Shown: positions 8,431 through 25,289 of the stretch, in pieces
Layout of the letters: each line of letters opens with the position of its first letter
Position numbering within the stretch: the first letter of the stretch is position 1
Assembly: GCA_951406725.2 (NCBI GenBank)
Contig: OX597829.1
Coordinates: forward strand, 47,244,001 to 47,308,000
Length of the DNA: 64,000 nucleotides
Direction of reading: 5' to 3'
DNA from: Octopus vulgaris
Taxonomy: Eukaryota
Notes under the pieces: model-generated
What the model saw: only the letters and a program-made list of their open reading frames with translations
The model's database searches: none
Told to the model about the DNA's origin: nothing
Translations under genes and position numbers: made by a program

Positions 8431-8694
8431 AGGTATATGTTATAGTTCTCCGTACACCATATAGGTATCATAAAACTTATTTTTGGGGGGTAAAGAGCAA
8501 CAGTACGAAGTTTATCTAGAAGGAAAAAAGGCATGTGTTCCCAATTCTTGGACCCGAGAGTATTATTAATGCAAGCCTTTTTAAATTTAATCGTTATTGC
8601 AACAAAATTAAAAATAGACATCTTTGATGAAGTCAGCCTTGGTAGAATTCGAGGAGTGAATCGTGGGAACATCTACATAGAAGTGGGTTCTACG

Positions 8695-11600
8695 TGACTA
8701 TTATTCGGTAGCCATGATAAAACTCCGAGTTTCGGATGTCGGGGTGGAAATCCACGCCACCATCTCTTCAGTTATCCGGCCATTTATCTGTAAATGTAAT
8801 ATGCGACAATGATTCGGTAGCCATGGTAAAACTCCGAGTTTCGGATGTCGGGGTGGAAATCCACGCCGCCATCTCTTCAGTTATCCGGCCTTTTATCTGT
8901 AAATGTAATATGCGACAATTATTCGGTAGCCATGATAAAACTCCAAATTTAGGATGTCGGGGTGGAAATCCACGCCACCATCTCTTCAGTTATCCGGCCT
9001 TTTATCTGTAAATGTAATATGCGACAATTGTTCCGTAGCCATGATAAAACTCCGAGTTTCGGATGTCGGGGTGGAAATCCACGCTACCATCTCTTCAGTT
9101 ATCCGGCCTTTTATCTGTAAATGTAATATGCGACAATTGTTCCGTAGCCATGATAAAACTCCGAGTTTCGGATGTCGGGGTGGAAATCCACGCTACCATC
9201 TCTTCAGTTATCCGGCCTTTTATCTGTAAATGTAATATGCGACAATTATTCGGTAGCCATGATAAAACTCCAAATTTAGGATGTCGGGGTGGAAATCCAC
9301 GCTACCATCTCTTCAGTTATCCGGCCTTTTATCTGTAAATGTAATATGCGACAATTATTCGGTAGCCATGATAAAACTCCGAGTTTCGGATGTCGGGGTG
9401 GAAATCCACGCTACCATCTCTTCAGTTATCCGGCCTTTTATCTGTAAATGTAACATGCGACAAAGGTTCCGTAGCCATGATAAAACTCCGGGTTTCGGAT
9501 GTCGGGGTGGAAATCCACGCCGCCATCTCTTCAGTTATCCGGCCTTTTATCTGTAAATGTAATATGCGACAATTATTCGGTAGCCATGGTAAAACTCCGA
9601 GTTTCGGATGTCGGGGTGGAAATCCACGCCACCATCGCTTCAGTTATCCGGCCTTTTATCTGTAAATGTAATATGCGACAATTATTCGGTAGCCATGATA
9701 AAACTCCGAGTTTCGGATGTCGGGGTGGAAATCCACGCTACCATCTCTTCAGTTATCCGGCCTTTTATCTGCAAATGTAATATGCGACAATTATTCGGTA
9801 GCCATGAAAAAACTCCGAGTTTCGGATGTCGGGGTGGAAATCCACGCTACCATCTCTTCAGTTATCCGGCCTTTTATCTGTAAATGTAATATGCGACAAT
9901 TATTCGGTAGCCATGATAAAACTCCGAGTTTCGGATGTCGGGGTGGAAATCCACGCCACCATCTCTTCAGTTATCCGGCCATTTATCTGCAAATGTAATA
10001 TGCGACAATTGTTCGGTAGCCATGATAAAACTCCGAGTTTCGGATGTCGGGGTGGAAATCCACGCCACCATCGCTTCAGTTATCCGGCCATTTATCTGTA
10101 AATGTAATATGCGACAATTATTCGGTAGCCATGATAAAACTCCGAGTTTCGGATGTCGGGGTGGAAATCCATGCCGCCATCTCTTCAGTTATCCGGCCAT
10201 TTATCTGTAAATGTAATATGCGACAATTATTCGGTAGCCATGATAAAACTCCGAGTTTCGGATGTCGGGGGTGGAAATCCACGCTACCATCGCTTCAGTT
10301 ATCCGGCCTTTTATCTGTAAATGTAATATGTGACAATTATTCGGTAGCCATGATAAAACTCCGAGTTTCGGATGTCGGGGTGGAAATCCACGCTACCATC
10401 TCTTCAGTTATCCGGCCATTTATCTGTAAATGTAATATGCGACAATTATTCGGTAGCCATGATAAAACTCCGGGTTTCGGATGTCGGGGTGGAAATCCAC
10501 GCTACCATCTCTTCAGTTATCCGGCCTTTTATCTGTAAATGTAATATGCGACAATTGTTCCGTAGCCATGATAAAACTCCGGGTTTCGGATGTCGGGGTG
10601 GAAATCCACGCTACCATCTCTTTAGTTATCCGGCCTTTTATCTGTAAATGTAATATGCGACAATTATTCGGTAGCCATGATAAAACTCCGAGTTTCGGAT
10701 GTCGGGGTGGAAATCCACGCTACCATCTCTTCAGTTATCCGGCCTTTTATCTGTAAATGTAATATGCGACAATTATTCGGTAGCCATGATAAAACTCCGA
10801 GTTTCGGATGTCGGGGTGGAAATCCACGCTACCATCTCTTCAGTTATCCGGCCTTTTATCTGTAAATGTAATATGCGACAATTATTCGGTAGCCATGATA
10901 AAACTCCGGGTTTCGGATGTCGGGGTGGAAATCCACGCTACTATCTCTTCAGTTATCCGGCCTTTTATCTGTAAATGTAATATGCGACAATTATTCGGTA
11001 GCCATGATAAAACTCCGGGTTTCGGATGTCGGGGTGGAAATCCACGCTACCATCTCTTCAGTTATCCGGCCTTTTATCTGTAAATGTAATATGCGACAAT
11101 TGTTCCGTAGCCATGATAAAACTCCGAGTTTCGGATGTCGGGGTGGAAATCCACGCTACCATCTCTTCAGTTATCCGGCCTTTTATCTGTAAATGTAATA
11201 TGCGACAATTATTCGGTAGCCATGATAAAACTCCGAGTTTCGGATATCGGGGTGGAAATCCACGTTACCATCTCTTCAGTTATCCGGCCTTTTATCTGTA
11301 AATGTAATATGCGACAATTATTCGGTAGCCATGATAAAACTCCGAGTTTCGGATGTCGGGGTGGAAATCCACGCCACCATCGCTTCAGTTATCCGGCCTT
11401 TTATCTGTAAATGTAATATGCGACAATTATTCGGTAGCCATGATAAAACTCCGAGTTTCGGATGTCGGGATGGAAATCCACGCCACCATCGCTTCAGTTA
11501 TCCGGCCTTTTATCTGTAAATGTAATATGCGACAATTGTTCCGTAGCCATGATAAAACTCCGAGTTTCGGATGTCGGGGTGGAAATCCACGCTACCATCT

Positions 11601-13227
11601 CTTCAGTTATCCGGCCTTTTATCTGTAAATGTAATATGCGACAATTATTCGGTAGCCATGATAAAACTCCGAGTTTCGGATGTCGGGGTGGAAATCCACG
11701 CTACCATCTCTTCAGTTATCCGGCCTTTTATCTGTAAATGTAATATGCGACAATTATTCGGTAGCCATGATAAAACTCCGAGTTTCGGATGTCGGGGTGG
11801 AAATCCACGCTACCATCTCTTCAGTTATCCGGCCTTTTATCTGTAAATGTAATATGCGACAATTATTCGGTAGCCATGATAAAACTCCGAGTTTCGGATG
11901 TCGGGGTGGAAATCCACGCTACCATCTCTTCAGTTATCCGGCCTTTTATCTGTAAATGTAATATGCGACAATTGTTCCGTAGCCATGATAAAACTCCGAG
12001 TTTCGGATGTCGGGGTGGAAATCCACGCCACCATCGCTTCAGTTATCCGGCCTTTTATCTGTAAATGTAATATGCGACAATTATTCGGTAGCCATGATAA
12101 AACTCCGGGTTTCGGATGTCGGGGTGGAAATCCACGCCACCATCGCTTCAGTTATCCGGCCTTTTATCTGTAAATGTAATATGCGACAATTGTTCCGTAG
12201 CCATGATAAAACTCCGAGTTTCGGATGTCGGGATGGAAATCCACGCCACCATCGCTTCAGTTATCCGGCCTTTTATCTGTAAATGTAATATGCGACAATT
12301 ATTCGGTAGCCATGATAAAACTCCGGGTTTCGGATGTCGGGGTGGAAATCTACGCTACAATCTCTTCAGTTATCCGGCCTTTTATCTGTAAATGTAATAT
12401 GCGACAATTGTTCCGTAGCCATGATAAAACTCCGAGTTTCGGATGTCGGTGTGGAAATCCACGCTACCATCTCTTCAGTTATCCGGCCTTTTATCTGTAA
12501 ATGTAATATGCGACAATTATTCGGTAGCCATGATAAAACTCCGAGTTTCGGATGTCGGGGTGGAAATCCACGCCACCATCGCTTCAGTTATCCGGCCTTT
12601 TATCTGTAAATGTAATATGCGACAATTATTCGGTAGCCATGATAAAACTCCGAGTTTCGGATGTCGGGGTGGAAATCCACGCTACCATCTCTTCAGTTAT
12701 CCGGCCTTTTATCTGTAAATGTAATATGCGACAATTATTCGGTAGCCATGATAAAACTCCGAGTTTCGGATGTCGGGGTGGAAATCCACGCTACCATCTC
12801 TTCAGTTATCCGACCTTTTATCTGTAAATGTAATATGCGACAATTATTCGGTAGCCATGATAAAACTCCGAGTTTCGGATGTCGGGGTGGAAATCCACGC
12901 TACCATCTCTTCAGTTATCCGGCCTTTTATCTGTAAATGTAATATACGACAATTGTTCCGTAGCCATGATAAAACTCCGAGTTTCGGATGTCGGGGTGGA
13001 AATCCACGCCACCATCGCTTCAGTTATCCGGCCTTTTATCTGTAAATGTAATATGCGACAATTATTTGGTAGCCATGATAAAACTCCGAGTTTCGGATGT
13101 CGGGGTGAAATCCATGCCGCCATCTCTTCAGTTATCCGGCCTTTTATCTGTAAATGTAATATGCGACAATTATTCGGTAGCCATGATAAAACTCCAAGTT
13201 TCGGATGTCGGGGTGGAAATCCACGCT
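8695..13227 (-). repeat. 109-bp tandem satellite, about 41.5 units
   Basis: Unit atgtcggggtggaaatccacgctaccatctcttcagttatccggccttttatctgtaaatgtaatatgcgacaattattcggtagccatgataaaactccgagtttcgg. ORF starts recur every 109 bp. Confidence 0.98.
8710..8781 (-). ncRNA. Type I hammerhead ribozyme motif (representative unit, repeated about 41 times through 13140)
   Basis: Minus strand: ggccg-gataa CUGAAGA gatg[...gtgg attt ccac...]catc c GAAA cuc g gag UU uuauc-au-ggcu. Stems I, II and III and the core are all present. Predicted cleavage after GUU lies between + coordinates 8720 and 8721. Confidence 0.8.
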
Positions 13228-13240
13228 GCGGGTTAAGGTT

Positions 13241-13427
13241 AGCGTGGATTTCCACCTCGACATCCGAAACTCGGAGTTTATCATGGCTACCGAATAATTG
13301 TCGCATATTACATTTACAGATAAAAGGCCGGATAACTGAAGAGATGGCGGCATGGATTTCCATCCCGACATCCGAAACTCGGAGTTTATCATGGCTACGG
13401 AACAATTGTCGCATATTACATTTACAG
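13241..13427 (+). repeat. Inverted copies (about 1.7 units) of the satellite, including one hammerhead motif at 13326-13397
   Basis: Reverse complement of the unit after the 13-bp spacer gcgggttaaggtt. Units are 1 nt shorter (ggagtttatc). Confidence 0.95.
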
Positions 13428-13559
13428 GTAAATTCCTCTACTTATAGAAGTGTGTTTTACGATAGCTGATTAATGTAGAGAAGGAAAAGTAGGAGATAAT
13501 ATAATGCTTGTAGTAGAGTTTAGTGAGCATGCGACCTATCTCTGGAGCAAAGCCTTTGA

Positions 13560-13882
13560 AGACAGAAATTATAAGATAAGAATTCATCACCTTCTTGGGT
13601 TTCAACGAGAGATTACAAATAATGGCCACACTGAACGATTAGGGAAGGAGAGCTGATGAGAAGTTTTTTCTGAGTTCATCAAAAATGAAGTAGAGGCATT
13701 TTAGAAAATGCTGACAGATTTATGGTGGTTGGAAAATGGACATAGAAGGATTGAAACAGTTTGTAGAAATGCTCTTGGCAAAGAACTCAAATAGTGAGCT
13801 GAATTTGGTACACGGAGAGCCTTGCGATTGTGATGCTCCATTGATGTTATTGGTTACAGGACGTCTTTAAAAACAGAGTCAT

Positions 13883-14089: not shown

Positions 14090-14912
14090 GTTTGTATCAC
14101 CAAACACTGGTTCTTTCAAAGCATTTAGTAATTGTAGTCTTGCAAGCATTGAGGTGGTTAGTAAAAGCTCCGCAGTTGGTAGAAATAGATAATGTCAAGC
14201 ATGAATTATGAGCAATTTCCTTTTTGTCTCCACAGTTGCGGGTTATCTACTAGTTCGTTTTGTGTTAAAACGACCTTAGTAAGATAGCTTCAGTCATTTT
14301 GCATAGCTGCCATAGAAGAGATGAAGCAAAGCCTATTTGAAGTCAGGATTAATGAGCATAAGCTGGTGGAGAAACAACCAAGTAAACTGAATTGAAATAT
14401 CAAACGTTTGAGTGTTGGAGAGGAGCTGTAGACATGTGAGATTCGTCGCTTTGATTAGACAGTGATCAAATGATTCAAAGGGAACAGAGATGATGGTGCC
14501 TGTGAAAAGGTTGAACGTGAAGATGTAAAGAGATAAAGGATGAGAGAAGTAAAAGGAAGACAGAGAGGACCAGATACATGGTGAAAGAGAGAGATCACTA
14601 GCTAAAAAAGAAAGGATCAAATAATTCAATGGGAGCAGAGGTTGTGGTGTCTGTGAAAAGGTTGGACATGAAGATGAAAAGAGATAAAGGATGAGAGAAG
14701 TAAAAGGAAGATAGAGAGGACCAGATACATGGTGAAAGAGAAAGATCACTAGCTAAAAAGAGAGGATCAAATGATTCAATGGGAACAGAGGTTGTGGTGT
14801 CTGTGAAAAGGTTGGACATGAAGATGAAAAGAGATAAAGGGTAAGTGAAGTAAAAAGAAAGACAGACAGAACTAGATACATGGTGAATGAGAGAGATCAC
14901 TAGCTAGAAAGA
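13560..14912 (-). mobile_element. Highly decayed APE-type LINE remnant, interrupted by (TAG)n/(TGG)n at 13883-14088
   Basis: Minus strand has an SFDHCLI motif (APE C-terminal SDH-like) and a HY.SSF...FPTTINL 3'-end-like motif, both very degenerate. Confidence 0.4.
14464..14912. repeat. About 150-bp unit x3 tandem
   Basis: gatcaaat.attcaa.ggga.cagag...gatcactagcta starts at 14464, 14615 and 14765. Confidence 0.9.
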
Positions 14913-16109
14913 GATATAAAGACAAATACTTAGATCAAGACGTGTGTATGTATGTGTGTATGTGTGTATGTGTGTATGTTTGTGTGTGTTTGTATGTGTG
15001 TATATTTGTGTATGCGCGCGTACACATATATATATAACCACATATATAACCTAAAGTAATGGCGCATTGTGTCATTTTATTATAAATTTCACGCGCTATA
15101 CGCATAGGTTCAATAAAGTTCCGTTTAACCTCGCTCTGCAAGCGAAGTTCAGAGCATTAGAGGAATGCATGTCTTTTAAACGAGTGACATCATAACGACA
15201 TACGATATTTTGATATCAAATGCTTTCGTTCATGATGGAACAAGAGATTAAGACAACTGAAATAAGTTTCAAATCTATTCTGGTTATTTTGGAGAAATGA
15301 ACTCGAAAAGATAAATTCAATAACCAACTGTTACAGGAACGATTGTATACTTGTAAATCAAGACGGGAAAGGTCATACCTCTTCCGTCACGATTTGTAAA
15401 GGGACTAAAATACTGAGAATTGGCTTTTTATCGAACTTTTAATCCATTTGCGAATAAACTAAGCGGAGAATTTTAACAAAATTCCACAGTATAAAAGCAA
15501 GCTTATTCCCTGATTGAAAAAATTTATCTTTGTCAATATCATCATCATCATGAGGATAAATATTTTGTTCCACTTTTGATCGAGATAGGGAAGGTATAAC
15601 TTTTCTTATCGCGCTAGCCATCGTCAGATGAATATAAATTATTCTTCAGCTATACTTGTTCGCTTTCAAAACCGATAGAAATTACTTCAAACACTATTCC
15701 GACTTTATGTTTATGAATAAGAGAATTTTCTGTCTCATCATGAATGAGAACTTTGTGCTTGAAATAATGTAAAATTAGATTGATGATAATCTGTTGTTTT
15801 ATTTTATCTTATTTCATTTCATTATTCTTTTTTTTTCCACATTTACTGATGTTTCTTTCATTCAAATTTGAAGTTGAAATATTTTCTCCAAACAAAAACA
15901 AACAAACGAACAACAACAGCATCAACAACAACGATAACAACAACAACAACAACAACAATATTAATGATATAAGCACATCATATCGGAATGCTTGAAAAAA
16001 TATTTGGATTTCACTGGTTTACTCCAAAAATCTCGAAGAAGATGAAATAATTCTAAAAACAGGAAGAATGTCAGATATTTTCTCTTTTTCACACCCGGAC
16101 TACTGCTGC

Positions 16110-16367: not shown

Positions 16368-17087
16368 GCCTCCCCACCAGAAATTACCAAAAACATGTAA
16401 TGAAAAGAAATATTACAAGTAACTGCAGAATATGTGGAGATGGACAAGAAACAATAAATCATATTATCTCTAGCTGCCCAGTCCTGGCTAAGAAGGAATA
16501 TATTCACAGACATGACAGAGTTGGAACCTACATACATTGGAAGCTATGCCAACAATATGGAATAACAACAGAAAAAAGATGGTATAGGCACACACCAGAA
16601 AAGGTCACAGAAAACGAGAAAGCAACCATACTCTGAGATATGCCGATACACACAGATAGAGAAATTAAGGCCAACAGACCAGATATAGTTGTCAGAGATC
16701 ATGAAGAAAAAAAATGCTTTCTAATTGATGTATCAATACCGGCTGATGACAACGTGTCTCTAAAAGAAATGGAGAAACTCTCAAAATACAAAGACCTGGA
16801 AATAGAGGTAACTAGAATGTGGAATCTGAAAACAGAAACAATTCCTATCATAGTAGGTGCATTAGGCATGATAAAAAAATATTCAGACAAATACATAACA
16901 AAAACACCAGGACTTACAAACACATATAACATACAGAAAATTGCACTACTAGGCACTGCACACATCCTACGCAGAACACTTTCCATACAATAACCATCAG
17001 AGCATCACAACAAATCACGGCACATACCCAATGCACACAGAGCTGTGCTCGGTAGTGAAGTGAAAGCACGCTATAAAAATAAAACTA

Positions 17088-18057: not shown

Positions 18058-20215
18058 CGACCCACAAAACTACAGACCAATAACCTGTCTCTCTACAATG
18101 TACAAAGCCTTTACTGCAATAATATCGCATAGATTGAACCAAGCATCTGGAAGAAAACAACCTGTTTCCAGAAGAGCAGAAGGGATGCTGCAAGGGCTCA
18201 TACGGCTGTAAAGATCAATTAATGATCAATAAAGTCATAACTGAAGACAGCCGCAGAAAGAAGAATGGCCTCAGTATGGCCTGGATAGACTACCGAAAGG
18301 CTTTTGATAGTATTCCCCACACGTGGATCCTTGAAATACTAGCCATGAACAAGGCAGCACCAATCATTATAAAATACCAAAGACAATCTATGAATATGTA
18401 GCAGACAGTGCTACAATTCCAAACAAAAGAGGAACTCGTGAAAACCAAAGCTATCCCCATTAGAAGAGGAATATTCTAGGGAGACACGCTCTCTCCACTC
18501 CTTTTCTGCTTGGCCCTTACACCTTTATCTGACATGCTAAATAGAATTGGATGCGGATACAAATGTTACGGCAAAACAATCAGCCACCTTTTATATATGG
18601 ATAACCTAAAACTATACGCTACAAATGACAAACAGCTGGAAACACTACTACAGACAGCACAAGGATTCACCAAAGAAATAAATATGACATTTGGATTAGA
18701 AAAATGTGCCAAAGCAACCCTGAAAAGAGGAGCATCACACTAGATAAAGCCAATGAAGTAAGAGAATTAGATCAAAGCCAGACATGCAAATATTTAGGAA
18801 TCAATGAACTAGATACGATACAGCACACACAAATGAAAGAGAAAATAAAGAAAGAATACTATAAACGAGTTATATCAATACTGAAAACAGAGCTCAATGC
18901 TAAAAACACGATAATAGGTATTAACACTATAGCCGTCCCAATTATAAGTTACAACTACAATATCCTTAACTGGATGCTAAATGATCTAACCAAAATAGAC
19001 AAGAAAACAAGAAAAATAATGACAGGATCTAGGATGCACCACCTAAAATCTGACATAGAAAGGCTATATATACAACGTATAGAAGGTGATAGAGGCCTTA
19101 TACAGCTGGAAAACTATTATAAAATAACCACCATAGGACTGCAACAGTACCTACTTCAGAAGCAAGGAAAACTAATACAAATAGCCACAAAACACGAGCA
19201 AAACATAAAACTGTTTCCAGTATTTAAGGAAGCTGACAAATACAAACAAGAAGTCATACTACCTAACAAAGATGAAGAAGAAGAAACGACAAAAGCTATA
19301 AAACAAATGAAATCCAAACTAAAACTAGAACAGCAACAGATCATGACGATGGCAAGAAAAGCCCCTTGACGGCAAATACTGGGCTAAATTGGACGCAAAA
19401 GAAATAGACAAAGCAAAATCCCAGCAATGGTTGAGAAGCTCAGGACTCAAAGCAGAGACAGAGGGATTTTTAATTGCTGCACAAGACCAAAGCCTCCCCA
19501 CCAGAAATTACAAAAAAACATATAATGAAAAGAAACATAACAAATAACTACAAAATATGTGGAGATGGACAGGAAACAATATATCATATTTTCTCTGGCT
19601 GCCCAGTCCTGGCTAAGAAGGAATATATTCATAGACACGACAGAGTTGGAACCTACATACTCTGGGAGCTATGCCAACACTATGGAATATCAGCAGAAAA
19701 AAGACGGTATAAGCACACGCCAGAAAATGTCACAGAAAACGAGAAAGCAATCATACTCTGGGATATGCCAATACACACAGATAGAGAAATTAAGGCCAGT
19801 AGGCCAGATATAGTTGTCAGAGATCATGAAAGACAAAAATACTTTCTAATTGATGTATCAATACCAGCAGCTGACAACGTGCCTCTCAAGGAAATGGAGA
19901 AACTTTTAAAATACAAAGACCTGGAAATAGAGGTAACTCGAATGTGGAATCTAAAAACAGAAATAATTCCTATCATAGTGGGCGCATTAGGTATGATCAA
20001 AAAATATTCAGACAAATACATAACAAAATCACCAGGACATACAACAAATATACAGCATACAGAAAATTGCACTACTAGGCACTGCACACATCCTACGCAG
20101 AACACTTTCCATACAATAACCATCAGAGCATCACAACAAATCACAGCACATACCCAAGGCACACAGAGCTGCGCTCGGTAGTGAATTAAAACACGCTATA
20201 AAAATAAAACTACTG
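18058..20215 (+). mobile_element. R4/Dong-like LINE, 5'-truncated and decayed (RT + CCHC + RLE + 3'UTR)
   Basis: NYRPITCL, AWIDYRKAFDS, GIF*GDTLSPLLF, LLYMDNLKLY, KYLGI, RPDIVV. Contains frameshifts and stops. Confidence 0.93.
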
Positions 20216-21413: not shown

Positions 21414-22370
<957 letters not shown>

Positions 22371-23815
22371 GCCTAAAATATGCCGAATAGTCAGATTTAA
22401 AGGATCTTATTAATTAAGTGATGTGACAACATAAAACAATGACAAGATTTCATCTCCATACAGCAATGTATGAAATGCTTGTCAATTAGACATATTATAC
22501 ACCTTTTTGCCTTCAGATATCAACTACATATCTCAGCATGGGTCGCTCACATTTGTAGAGGGATGGATGTGCCTCTGCTTTACATATCACAGTATCACAG
22601 TATCGACAGCCTATCAGATGTTATTATACATCGCCTGCCGCAATGCGCTTTGCATTGTTTTAGCTCTCGAATGACGCCAACAATTCCCCTGATCGGAAGG
22701 CTATTCCGTCAGAGGGTTATCCATTTAATGCTGAGTGGACTGGATCTTAGTGTAATGAAACATCTTGCTCAAGAACACAATACACCACTCATTCCGTGGA
22801 TCTAGTGATTGTGAGTGTATTATCATAACCAAGACAAGCGCCTTCACGATTTACATATAGTTGCTCAAAACACAGAGTAACTATGCCGTTGATAGAACAC
22901 GAAACTTCGATCTTTATTGTTAACCTTTTTTGTGAAACTTTATTTTTTTTATTGACTTATTTAATTATTAAGTCAGCTGCATCTATCATATTATTAAAAA
23001 AAAAAAAGTCTCCGAAGTTAATAAAAACAAAAACAAAAAAGGGCTAAAGGAAAGAAAATAAGGATTCCATTTCTGGAAATAAAATAAAATAAAATAAAAT
23101 AAAATAAGAATTTTGAAATTGGTTGTAATTTGATACTTTTGTAAACCATAAATGCCAAGCAGTCTGACCTTGTGTTGAAGAAAGATTCACAGCTATGGAC
23201 CGCTGTTTACCATCTTGATATGTGATCTTAGCTATAACACATCGAAGAACAACATTTAGATAATATCAAACGTCATGTCTGTCACATATGACCTATGTAG
23301 GTCTTTAGTTCTCTTTATAAACTCAGTGTTTAATTTAAAACCTCTGAAATGTCGCATTTGATATTTATTTAGTGTGTTTTCTTGAACAAATCGTTTTCTA
23401 AGAGATTTTTGCGTTTATTGCCCCTTGATTATTTAAACTTGTACATAACTCACATTCAGATTGATAGGCAAAGTAAATAAACAATAATTGTTTCTAATTT
23501 AGGCACAAGACGAGCACTTTTCTAAGAGGGATAGCTCGATATCTTCTACTTCAATACTTGGCTGGTATTTATTTTATTTAATCAAACCCCCAGAGGGGGT
23601 GAAACCAAAGTTTTCTCCACAGAGATTTGAACTAAAAGCGTAAATAATAAGAAATAAATATATATATATATATATATATAAAAAGACGGAAGAAATTATG
23701 TATGGCATTTTGTTCGGCGCTCTAACGATTATGCCAGATCGCTGGCTTGAAATAAGTTTGATATTTCATCTGTCCAGATCGATTTTATCATTAGAATCAA
23801 ACAAACTGGTGAAGT

Positions 23816-24163
23816 AAATAAATAATAATCCTTCCTACAAGGATAGGTACAAGGCCTGAAATTTGAGGGAGAAGTATAGTCGCTTATCCACTTGAGTATC
23901 CTAGCTGAGTACCCCAGTACTCAACTAGTACTTAATTTATCAACCCCGAAAGGATGAAAGGCAAAGTTGACTTCGGTGGAAAGGAAATAAATAATAATCC
24001 TTCCTACGATAGGTACATGGCCTGAAATTTGAGGGAGGAGTATAATCGCTTATCCAATTGAGTACCCTAGCTGAGTACCCCGGTACTCAACCGGTACTTA
24101 ATTTATCAACCCCGAAAGGATGAAAGGCAAAGTTGACTTCGGTGGAAAGGAAATAAATAATAA
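23816..24163 (-). repeat. Tandem duplication (about 167 bp x2) of a family B-like SINE 3' fragment
   Basis: aaataaataataatccttcctac...ccccgaaaggatgaaaggcaaagttgacttcggtggaaagg occurs twice. Confidence 0.85.
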
Positions 24164-25289
24164 TGAAATTGATATTAGTTCTCAATGTGTCGAACGACGC
24201 CGTAGATTAAGAAATTAAATGCTCTTAGTGAAGCTGAAACAGCGACCTGTCTGCTTCCGCTTTTGGCATTCTTATGCAGTAACTTTTTGTTCTTTCTTGC
24301 TGGCTTCACCAATGATCTTGATAAAATTATGAACTGTCATGCAATATCTTCCTATTTGGTCTGTGTATTCTTATGGCGTTTCACTCAGTTAAAGAAAATT
24401 ATATCCTTTTCTTTTTTCTGTGAATGAAGCGAGTTCTTGGTGTTGTTTAACTCCAGGCCAGCATTGACGTATATATTACTTTTATATAAACATACATACA
24501 CACACACAAACACACACACACATACACATATACACACACTTATATAATGTAGGTTGTGGTTTTTGTCTTGAGAGATGCCATACATATATACATACATGCA
24601 TGCATGCATACATATATATATTTTGAAACTGACCTATTTTCCATTACATTTCACACAAATTCAGCGCTGAGTTGCTGAAGCAGAAATATCGTTATAGTAA
24701 ATATTCTGCTCAATACCATAGATTTGTCCTTAACCAGTTGAGCATGACTCTTAGTGGCTGACAATATGTGCATCTCTGATCATGAGCAGGAGTAGTGGAG
24801 AAGCATCATAGCCATCCGTTGACAGAGATTCTTCGGGGTTTGAGTAAATATCGTAACAAAAGCAAAAATTGAAGGAAATATTAGCTATTTTAAATACTTT
24901 CTAGTGGTAAGCAAATAGGAAATAACAGTTGCTACACAATGACAAAAATCGTGTTACACAGAATAATTCATAGTTCAATAACCATTCTGTGTGCATAGCT
25001 TCTCTTTGTGACTTCTACAGATTACCTTACTGAAACAGACAAGCGCACGTACACTCGTTACATGTTAGATTGGGCCGTGCACCAGAATACTAAGGCGAAT
25101 TCGCAACAATACTATTTCGAATATCTCTCTTGAGCTGGTCGTGCTAGTTGCAGTTTTGTTCAGATTACCCCCTCCAAGCATTCACTGCTTTTCTTCATGA
25201 TGAACATTCATGCAGGAATACATACGTGCATGCATAATCCGTACATGATGATTGCCACTTCTTTACATAAGAAGGCTATCTCTTCAATT

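What the first reader, a model, noticed from the sequence alone, without database searches (positions are those of the whole stretch)
8695..13227. A 4.5-kb satellite made of about 41 tandem hammerhead ribozymes (109-nt retrozyme-like unit)
Seen: the minus strand of each 109-bp unit reads ggccg-gataa CUGAAGA gatggtagcgtggatttccaccccgacatcc GAAA cucggag UU uuauc-au-ggcu. This gives stem I (gataa/ttatc, extended by ggcc/ggct across an internal loop), the conserved core, a hairpin stem II with one extra C, a quasi-palindromic stem III and a GUU (NUH) site. About 72 of the 109 nt are ribozyme. Known: hammerhead-bearing tandem repeats exist (newt satellite 2, Schistosoma Sm-alpha, cricket pDo500, metazoan non-LTR retrozymes), usually with longer monomers, and short palindromic stem III favours dimeric cleavage between neighbouring units. 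Inference: a minus-strand transcript would self-process into 109-nt monomers, possibly circular, which would be an unusually small ribozyme replicon or satellite for this lineage.
Basis: partly seen in the sequence, partly recalled or inferred. Interest (0 to 1): 0.92.

Follow-up and report, generated by a model that had tools for sequence, protein, structure and literature searches.

The report
Ribozyme satellite born from Penelope retrotransposon
A one-off run of about 41 copies of a hammerhead-ribozyme-shaped fragment from the tail end of a Penelope-like jumping gene: a known kind of repeat whose origin here can be traced unusually fully, with no sign that it spreads as an independent RNA.

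Summary
The array is real: 41.6 x 109 bp, with 41 type I hammerhead-like motifs on the minus strand. It is not a free-standing replicon. The unit is a piece of the 3' pseudo-LTR of a Hydra-clade Penelope-like element (PLE), traced from dispersed copies (1,540 exact core matches) to RT and GIY-YIG remnants and to a sister subfamily with a 717-codon ORF. This is standard PLE architecture. The head-to-tail junction occurs only here (42 of 42 genome-wide matches). The array decays neutrally: 13 of 41 cores are mutated and only 20 units are fully intact. GUU and the palindromic stem III are normal for Hydra-clade hammerheads; the extra C is old in this family but absent from 26 published rows. Best reading: a short tandem made during insertion, then expanded and shuffled as DNA, the ribozyme being a passenger. 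Cleavage and 109-nt circles are untested. It is a new member of the non-LTR retrozyme-like kind with an unusually complete record of its origin.

The parts
8677..8694 (+). Left copy of the 18-bp target-site duplication
   Evidence: 16 of 18 identical to 13444-13461; best of 500 shuffles 13 of 18. A contig from run X15 has T at 8686, making it 17 of 18.
8695..13229 (-). Tandem array, about 41.6 x 109 bp; each unit is the 72-nt hammerhead motif plus 37 nt of PLE 3' sequence; this is the tail-less arm of the insertion
   Evidence: homology to dispersed PLE ends.
8710..8781 (-). Last hammerhead motif of the array; predicted cut between + 8720 and 8721, then about every 109 bp
   Evidence: prediction from the GUU site; not assayed.
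10745..10853 (-). Example fully intact unit (majority sequence)
13230..13241 (+). 12-nt filler at the head-to-head junction; 11 of 12 match (GGGTTA)2
   Evidence: the only telomere-like filler among 28 head-to-head junctions examined.
13242..13325 (+). Inverted arm, 5'-truncated unit, ending in the same head-to-tail junction as the array
13326..13433 (+). Inverted arm, complete unit with a 1-nt deletion in the T run at the cleavage site / stem I
13434..13443 (+). First 10 nt of the family's ~65-nt 3' tail, which is not part of the 109-bp unit
   Evidence: Comparison with dispersed copies.
13444..13461 (+). Right copy of the target-site duplication

Best explanation
One retrotransposition event of a Hydra-clade Penelope-like element (subfamily B, core CUGAAGA) left two head-to-head, 5'-truncated arms between an 18-bp duplication. 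During cDNA synthesis the RT jumped from just upstream of the hammerhead back to the family's tail-less end site, on a 2-nt microhomology, creating a 109-bp head-to-tail repeat. The short tandem then grew and was shuffled as DNA (unequal exchange and conversion, including with the inverted arm) to about 41 units. The hammerhead is inherited from the parent's pseudo-LTR and now decays neutrally; intact neighbours could still cleave weakly as dimers if the minus strand is transcribed. SHOWN: parentage, insertion anatomy, single-locus junction, shared variants, no core protection. INFERRED: the template jump, DNA-level growth, weak dimer cleavage.
For: Dispersed copies run upstream through a ~0.9-kb 3' UTR into GIY-YIG and RT remnants. 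That remnant is 80% identical over 215 aa to a 717-codon ORF with all Hydra-clade motifs. The junction is found 42 of 42 times at this locus. Head-to-head arms are routine in the family: 27 junctions in 102 other element-bearing loci. Of 12 other same-strand pairs 50-300 nt apart, 4 are true short tandems with their own junctions, and L161 repeats a ~110-nt junction twice before a tail. 14 changes are shared by several units, including a triple change in units 36 and 39, and derived variants are shared with the inverted arm. 3 of 32 distinct changes fall in 11 core positions against 3.2 expected (my count). The arm carries tail sequence that a 109-nt circle would lack.
Against: Neighbouring units are no more alike than shuffled order (lag 1: 19% of shuffles as close), which simple slippage would not predict, although conversion-driven minisatellites behave so (recalled). 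Both arms carry the same junction and no source locus was found, so a fold-back or an RNA template holding the junction is needed. The young sister subfamily makes exact full-length concatemers in both arms, which favours a rolling template in this family.
Confidence: 0.62

Rival explanations
1. Rolling-circle birth: a dimeric precursor was cut twice by its hammerheads, the 109-nt piece was circularised, and PLE RT rolled round it (or round a pool of variant circles) many times in one insertion. Most of the array length would then be made at birth and only later touched by conversion.
For: The same architecture occurs at full length: at C1:57.2 Mb four copies face 1.35 copies, with an identical tail-to-start junction 6 times at 3 loci. 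Both arms here share the junction. Variants are not locally clustered. The model is proposed in PMC4209133 and PMC7229834.
Against: No source dimer with this junction in the assembly at <=1 mismatch. The arm begins in tail sequence absent from a 109-nt circle. One circle would give identical units with private changes, whereas 14 changes are multi-copy.
Confidence: 0.22
2. Live retrozyme: the array is transcribed on the minus strand, self-processes to 109-nt monomers and circles, and is kept or spread through them.
For: 20 of 41 units are intact, with 7 adjacent intact pairs. The dimer fold is favoured over monomers. Similar arrays in coral, mussel and axolotl give circles (PMC7229834).
Against: No daughter insertions. 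A9C has spread to 10 units and the majority variant (25 of 41) weakens stem II. The dimer fold is still 7.5-14.3 kcal/mol above the ensemble, against 4.7 for a canonical-looking control motif. PLE hammerheads cleave poorly (PMC4209133), and 1 of 9 tested frog retrozyme dimers cleaved.
Confidence: 0.12
3. Assembly artefact: a collapsed or over-expanded repeat with a fold-back read.
For: Palindromes and tandems are hard to assemble; both arm copies share a homopolymer deletion that no array unit has.
Against: 30 distinct units; a target-site duplication; tail sequence in the arm. A contig from run X15, differing at 6 flank positions, bridges flank and first unit, and a contig from run X16 (another organism label) bridges the junction.
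Confidence: 0.03

Closest known systems
Non-LTR retrozymes of animals (Cervera and de la Pena 2020, PMC7229834; Li, Clavereau and Pollet, bioRxiv 10.64898/2026.07.22.740005)
   Same: Non-coding tandem repeat with a type I hammerhead per unit and a palindromic short stem III. 41 units and 109 bp lie within the reported ranges (up to 62-mers in coral, up to 300 units; consensus 51-972 bp). Li et al. propose the same origin: a PLE terminal sequence amplified locally.
   Different: Single locus with no mobile daughters; circles not shown; shorter than the 170-400 nt circles that were characterised. The insertion anatomy and parent are recoverable directly rather than by phylogeny. No cephalopod was among the 35 genomes of Li et al. 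by their stated classes.
Hydra-clade Penelope-like elements, e.g. Hydra-1_Obim (Craig et al. 2021, PMC8557442)
   Same: The parent has RWK, DKT, CxCX5C, no CCHH, CxxC and CxH motifs, C-terminal EN, (TA)n targets, optional tail, inverted 5'-truncated arm and a 3' hammerhead. Stem III ACUC-N-GAGU is in 5 of 26 and GUU in 10 of 26 tabulated hammerheads.
   Different: A different family from Hydra-1_Obim (different stems, by eye comparison only). It has a long imperfect stem II and an extra C beside C11.1, seen in none of the 26 rows. This insertion is in unique sequence with an 18-bp duplication, not in (TA)n.
Minimal PLE hammerheads (Cervera and de la Pena 2014, PMC4209133)
   Same: Long helix II, G10.1-C11.1, palindromic helix III, predicted dimer action, bulged helix II in D. 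virilis.
   Different: The unpaired base is on the 3' side of helix II rather than after A9.
Newt satellite 2, Schistosoma Sm-alpha / W elements, cricket pDo500 (partly recalled; newt satellite seen passages)
   Same: Hammerhead-bearing satellites, dimer-dependent in newts.
   Different: Those are abundant, transcribed families; this is one 4.5-kb locus.

Membership tests
Type I hammerhead ribozyme | Core C3 U4 G5 A6 N7 G8 A9 / G12 A13 A14 A15 U16 H17 | tested here: met
   Met in 28 of 41 units; core definition from PMC3088659.
Type I hammerhead ribozyme | Three helices closing the core, open at stem I | tested here: met
   Constrained folds are possible, with one bulged or extra C at the base of stem II. 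89.5% of cells pair in 51 family copies against 30-61% for slid controls.
Type I hammerhead ribozyme | Covariation in the helices | tested here: inconclusive
   Two subfamily-level compensatory changes (stem I A-U/G-C; stem II C-G/U-A); N7 and the stem III loop base vary freely. Few independent events; the sequences are related and were selected by core patterns.
Type I hammerhead ribozyme | Match to an Rfam hammerhead model | tested here: not met
   0 hits at gathering score and at E<=10 on 8600-9300.
Type I hammerhead ribozyme | Site-specific self-cleavage | not testable with these tools
   Needs an in vitro assay.
Non-LTR retrozyme | At least two consecutive tandem units with a complete hammerhead (operational definition of Li et al.) | tested here: met
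   7 adjacent fully intact pairs; definition.
Non-LTR retrozyme | Non-coding and related to a PLE pseudo-LTR | tested here: met
   the frames over the array are repeat translations.
Non-LTR retrozyme | Expressed as unit-length linear and circular RNA | tested here: inconclusive
   No run on record as RNA holds the stretch; contigs cannot settle it.
Non-LTR retrozyme | Unit mobilised to new loci | tested here: not met
   The junction occurs only at this locus, 42 of 42 matches at <=1 mismatch; older diverged copies could be missed.
Hydra-clade PLE (parent) | RWK and DKT motifs; C-terminal GIY-YIG EN with CxCX5C linker, no CCHH, CxxC and CxH | tested here: met
   Positions 46, 123, 566, 585, 669 and 700 of the L133 ORF; definition. 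Pfam gave no significant hit. No tree was built.
Hydra-clade PLE (parent) | 3' hammerhead, optional tail, inverted 5'-truncated copy, (TA)n targets | tested here: met
   16 copies run into the tail and 18 stop at (TA)n before it.

The most novel reading that the evidence does not exclude
The locus is a fossil of rolling-circle retrotransposition in miniature: a PLE reverse transcriptase went tens of times round a 109-nt hammerhead-cut RNA circle in one insertion, the two arms being joined by telomere-type repeats. With the exact full-length concatemers of the young subfamily, this genome would give direct evidence for the long-proposed circular PLE intermediate, and intact neighbours might still release 109-nt circles.
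Probability: 0.2. Interest if true: 0.68.

Novelty: new member of a known kind. Interest (0 to 1): 0.4.

Why it matters
That hammerhead satellites come from Penelope-like pseudo-LTRs has been argued from co-occurrence and trees. Here the whole chain is visible at one locus: parent ORF, tail, inverted arm, target duplication and a unique junction. It also shows that an array passing the usual 'active retrozyme' screen can be a neutrally decaying single-locus satellite. The side findings may matter more. Three successive subfamilies show stepwise erosion of the hammerhead, and the youngest and most numerous (3,451 exact matches, U4C) still makes exact concatemers. That makes it directly testable whether PLEs need ribozyme cleavage at all. 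I found no report of this array or family in four literature searches.

Tried and rejected
Rfam: no hits. Unconstrained folds do not give the hammerhead and are no more stable than shuffles (z -0.1 to -1.0), so folding energy is no evidence for it. Expression: no RNA holder listed. In two runs only guessed to be RNA (X1, X2), 735 and 246 family contigs were laid and none covered the junction base 8782; contigs, size selection and possible DNA content make this no evidence either way. Depths are not copy numbers. A pair of copies 9.6 kb apart on C20, taken at first for flanking pLTRs, is a segmental duplication. The GIY-YIG fragment beside the copy in L023 is another insertion. Homologue search of longer proteins: none. 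The profile-free search gave 6,068 unnamed relatives and no label. Pfam: only GIY-YIG at E 0.13 in 1 of 6 proteins scanned. No paralogous empty site: both flanks are single-copy. Back-splicing as origin of the junction was rejected because the junction lies 6 nt past the AG and lacks a GT in the array. A mirror-haplotype argument at positions 23-24 was dropped after one search showed that the arm's TA may be filler. No higher-order period: lags 4, 10 and 13 reach p 0.03-0.05 among 20 tested. A loop II / stem I-flank pseudoknot (GGUAGC with GCUACC) was rejected as functional: it needs the derived TA state, absent from the parent majority, and it appears as a misfold. Earlier scan notes: nothing on this genome or sequence. 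A planned Pfam scan of the flanks did not run, so their identity stays unchecked.

Full report
Observation. The array is as described: 8696-13227, period 109, 41.6 copies, 41 minus-strand motifs, mean pairwise difference 3.5%. Each unit reads stem I GAUAA/UUAUC, CUGAAGA, a long stem II, one extra C, GAAA, the 9-nt palindrome ACUC-G-GAGU and GUU; the predicted cut is 8720/8721. Rfam finds nothing. The genome is 2.80 Gb in 227 contigs. That it is an octopus is my inference from its size, its repeats and the likeness to Hydra-1_Obim.

The array is one arm of a larger insertion. After 13229 come a 12-nt filler (11 of 12 matching two telomeric hexamers), an inverted arm of 1.8 units (13242-13433) with the same head-to-tail junction, 10 nt of the family's tail, and an 18-bp duplication of the left target (16 of 18; best of 500 shuffles 13). 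A contig from run X15 bridges the left flank and first unit, differs at 6 flank positions and one gap, and carries the base that makes the duplication 17 of 18. A contig from run X16, under another organism label, bridges the junction. The locus is therefore real and not private to this assembly.

Parent. The core pattern has 1,540 exact matches genome-wide (control 0). Dispersed copies sit in (TA)n, often as head-to-head pairs, with a ~65-nt tail on one arm only: 16 copies ran into the tail and 18 stopped before it. 27 head-to-head junctions were found in 102 other element-bearing loci. Walking upstream led through a ~0.9-kb UTR to decayed GIY-YIG and RT frames. The EN remnant is 80% identical over 215 aa to a 717-codon open frame of a sister subfamily, which has every motif that Craig et al. 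list for the Hydra clade. In their File S2, 10 of 26 Hydra-clade hammerhead rows have GUU and 5 of 26 have ACUC-N-GAGU. The extra C is in none of the 26 rows but is kept in all three subfamilies here (the search patterns required it, so this is not an unbiased count).

Is it a ribozyme? By homology yes; by assay unknown. On 51 family copies 89.5% of cells pair, against 30-61% for slid controls, with two subfamily-level compensatory changes; these are few events among relatives. The monomer fold is rare in ViennaRNA (about 1e-6 to 1e-8). The dimer is about 10 kcal/mol better than two monomers but 7.5 (extra-C register) to 14.3 (bulge register) above the ensemble; a canonical-looking motif from another family is 4.7 above. 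Published PLE hammerheads cleave weakly and as dimers, and 1 of 9 frog dimers cleaved.

Is it a replicon? The junction, allowing one mismatch in 23, occurs 42 times, all here. Same-strand pairs 50-300 nt apart give 41 matches: 29 here and 12 elsewhere, each a single row. Four of the 12 are true short tandems with their own junctions (83, 110, 118, 150 nt), and L161 is an independent mini-array with a twice-repeated junction, a tail and an inverted arm. Short tandems thus arise repeatedly in this family, and only this one is long. Within the array 13 of 41 cores are mutated (A9C in 10), 20 of 41 are fully intact with 7 adjacent intact pairs, and 3 of 32 distinct changes hit 11 core positions against 3.2 expected (my count, after dropping 4 arm-only rows of 36). 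No compensatory change occurs in the array. 14 changes are multi-copy and 13 are single in the first 87 positions, and derived states are shared with the inverted arm. This requires copying after mutation.

Mechanism. I favour (0.62) a template jump during insertion, from just upstream of stem I back to the tail-less end site, followed by DNA-level growth and conversion. The near-symmetric truncation of the two arms (positions 22 and 25; only 2 of 27 other junctions are within 3 nt) would fit a fold-back that copied the junction into both arms, and self-priming is proposed for PLEs in PMC3846280. Against this reading: neighbours are not more alike than chance, and the young subfamily forms exact concatemers in both arms (four copies facing 1.35 at C1:57.2 Mb; the same junction 6 times at 3 loci), which is what a circular or multimeric template predicts. 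Rolling-circle birth gets 0.22, a live retrozyme 0.12, an artefact 0.03.

Side result. Subfamily A (core CUGAUGA, 141 exact matches, 11.8% from its majority, 7-bp stem II), B (CUGAAGA, 5.6%, internal mismatch) and C (CCGAAGA with G-U at 10.1-11.1, 3,451 matches, 3.4%) suggest stepwise erosion of the motif in successively younger, still successful lineages (n = 25, 35 and 15 indel-free copies; the search patterns bias these percentages). U4C is a known natural variant with reduced activity (PMC3088659).

Literature seen. PMC8557442: passages, section 11, supplement passages and part 2 of 59. bioRxiv 2026.07.22.740005: parts 1-3 of 5; its supplements, which list families, were not seen. PMC7229834: passages and Discussion. 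PMC4209133: parts 1-2 of 4. PMC3088659 and PMC3846280: passages. PMC2246262 (telomerase at breaks): search listing only. Minisatellite turnover, the TTAGGG telomere of molluscs and the cricket satellite are recalled. Searches found no report of this array.

Verdict. This is a new member of a known kind, a PLE-derived hammerhead satellite, notable for its complete record of origin rather than for its size. Interest 0.40.

Noticed in passing
G000 genome-wide; L133:1889-4039, L134-L138: A young Hydra-clade subfamily with open 717-codon frames and 3,451 exact motif matches carries a U4C core and G-U at 10.1-11.1. With older subfamilies A and B it suggests stepwise erosion of the hammerhead in active lineages.
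   Followed up: partly
L165+L166 (C1:57.208-57.223 Mb), L167, L168: Full-length concatemers joined exactly tail-end to 5' start, in head-to-head arms; arms end at one of two fixed sites ~65 nt apart. Fits a circular or multimeric RNA template.
   Followed up: partly
window 13230-13241: Telomere-like 12-nt filler at the inversion point, unique among 28 junctions; possibly telomerase-type addition at a break.
   Followed up: partly
L161 (C18:33.98 Mb): Independent 2.5-unit mini-array of the same family, ~110-nt unit, different junction, with tail and inverted arm.
   Followed up: yes
L038:6091 (+) and 2558 (-); L116; L119:730: At least two other canonical-looking type I hammerhead families in this genome.
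   Followed up: no
window 8440-8694 and 13444-13860: One decayed reading frame appears to continue across the insertion site; it may be an old retroelement remnant. Not identified.
   Followed up: no
window 16637-16993, 18629-19369, 19474-20181, 21711-22313: Fragments that look like non-LTR retrotransposon RT and restriction-like endonuclease coding (label recalled, not scanned).
   Followed up: no
window 14464-14914 and 23812-24164: 151-bp x 3 and 166-bp x 2 tandem repeats, apparently from LINE and SINE ends.
   Followed up: no
window 13030-13433: The array end and the inverted arm form a ~190-bp near-perfect palindrome; any read-through transcript would make long double-stranded RNA.
   Followed up: no
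L035-L037 (C20:18.14-18.16 Mb): 9.6-kb tandem duplication at 99.5% identity; real or an assembly duplicate.
   Followed up: no
run X2, record 25 (laid on 8694-8783): One family variant contig has depth 389, well above the other X2 pieces listed; possibly one highly expressed dispersed copy, but the run is only guessed to be RNA.
   Followed up: no
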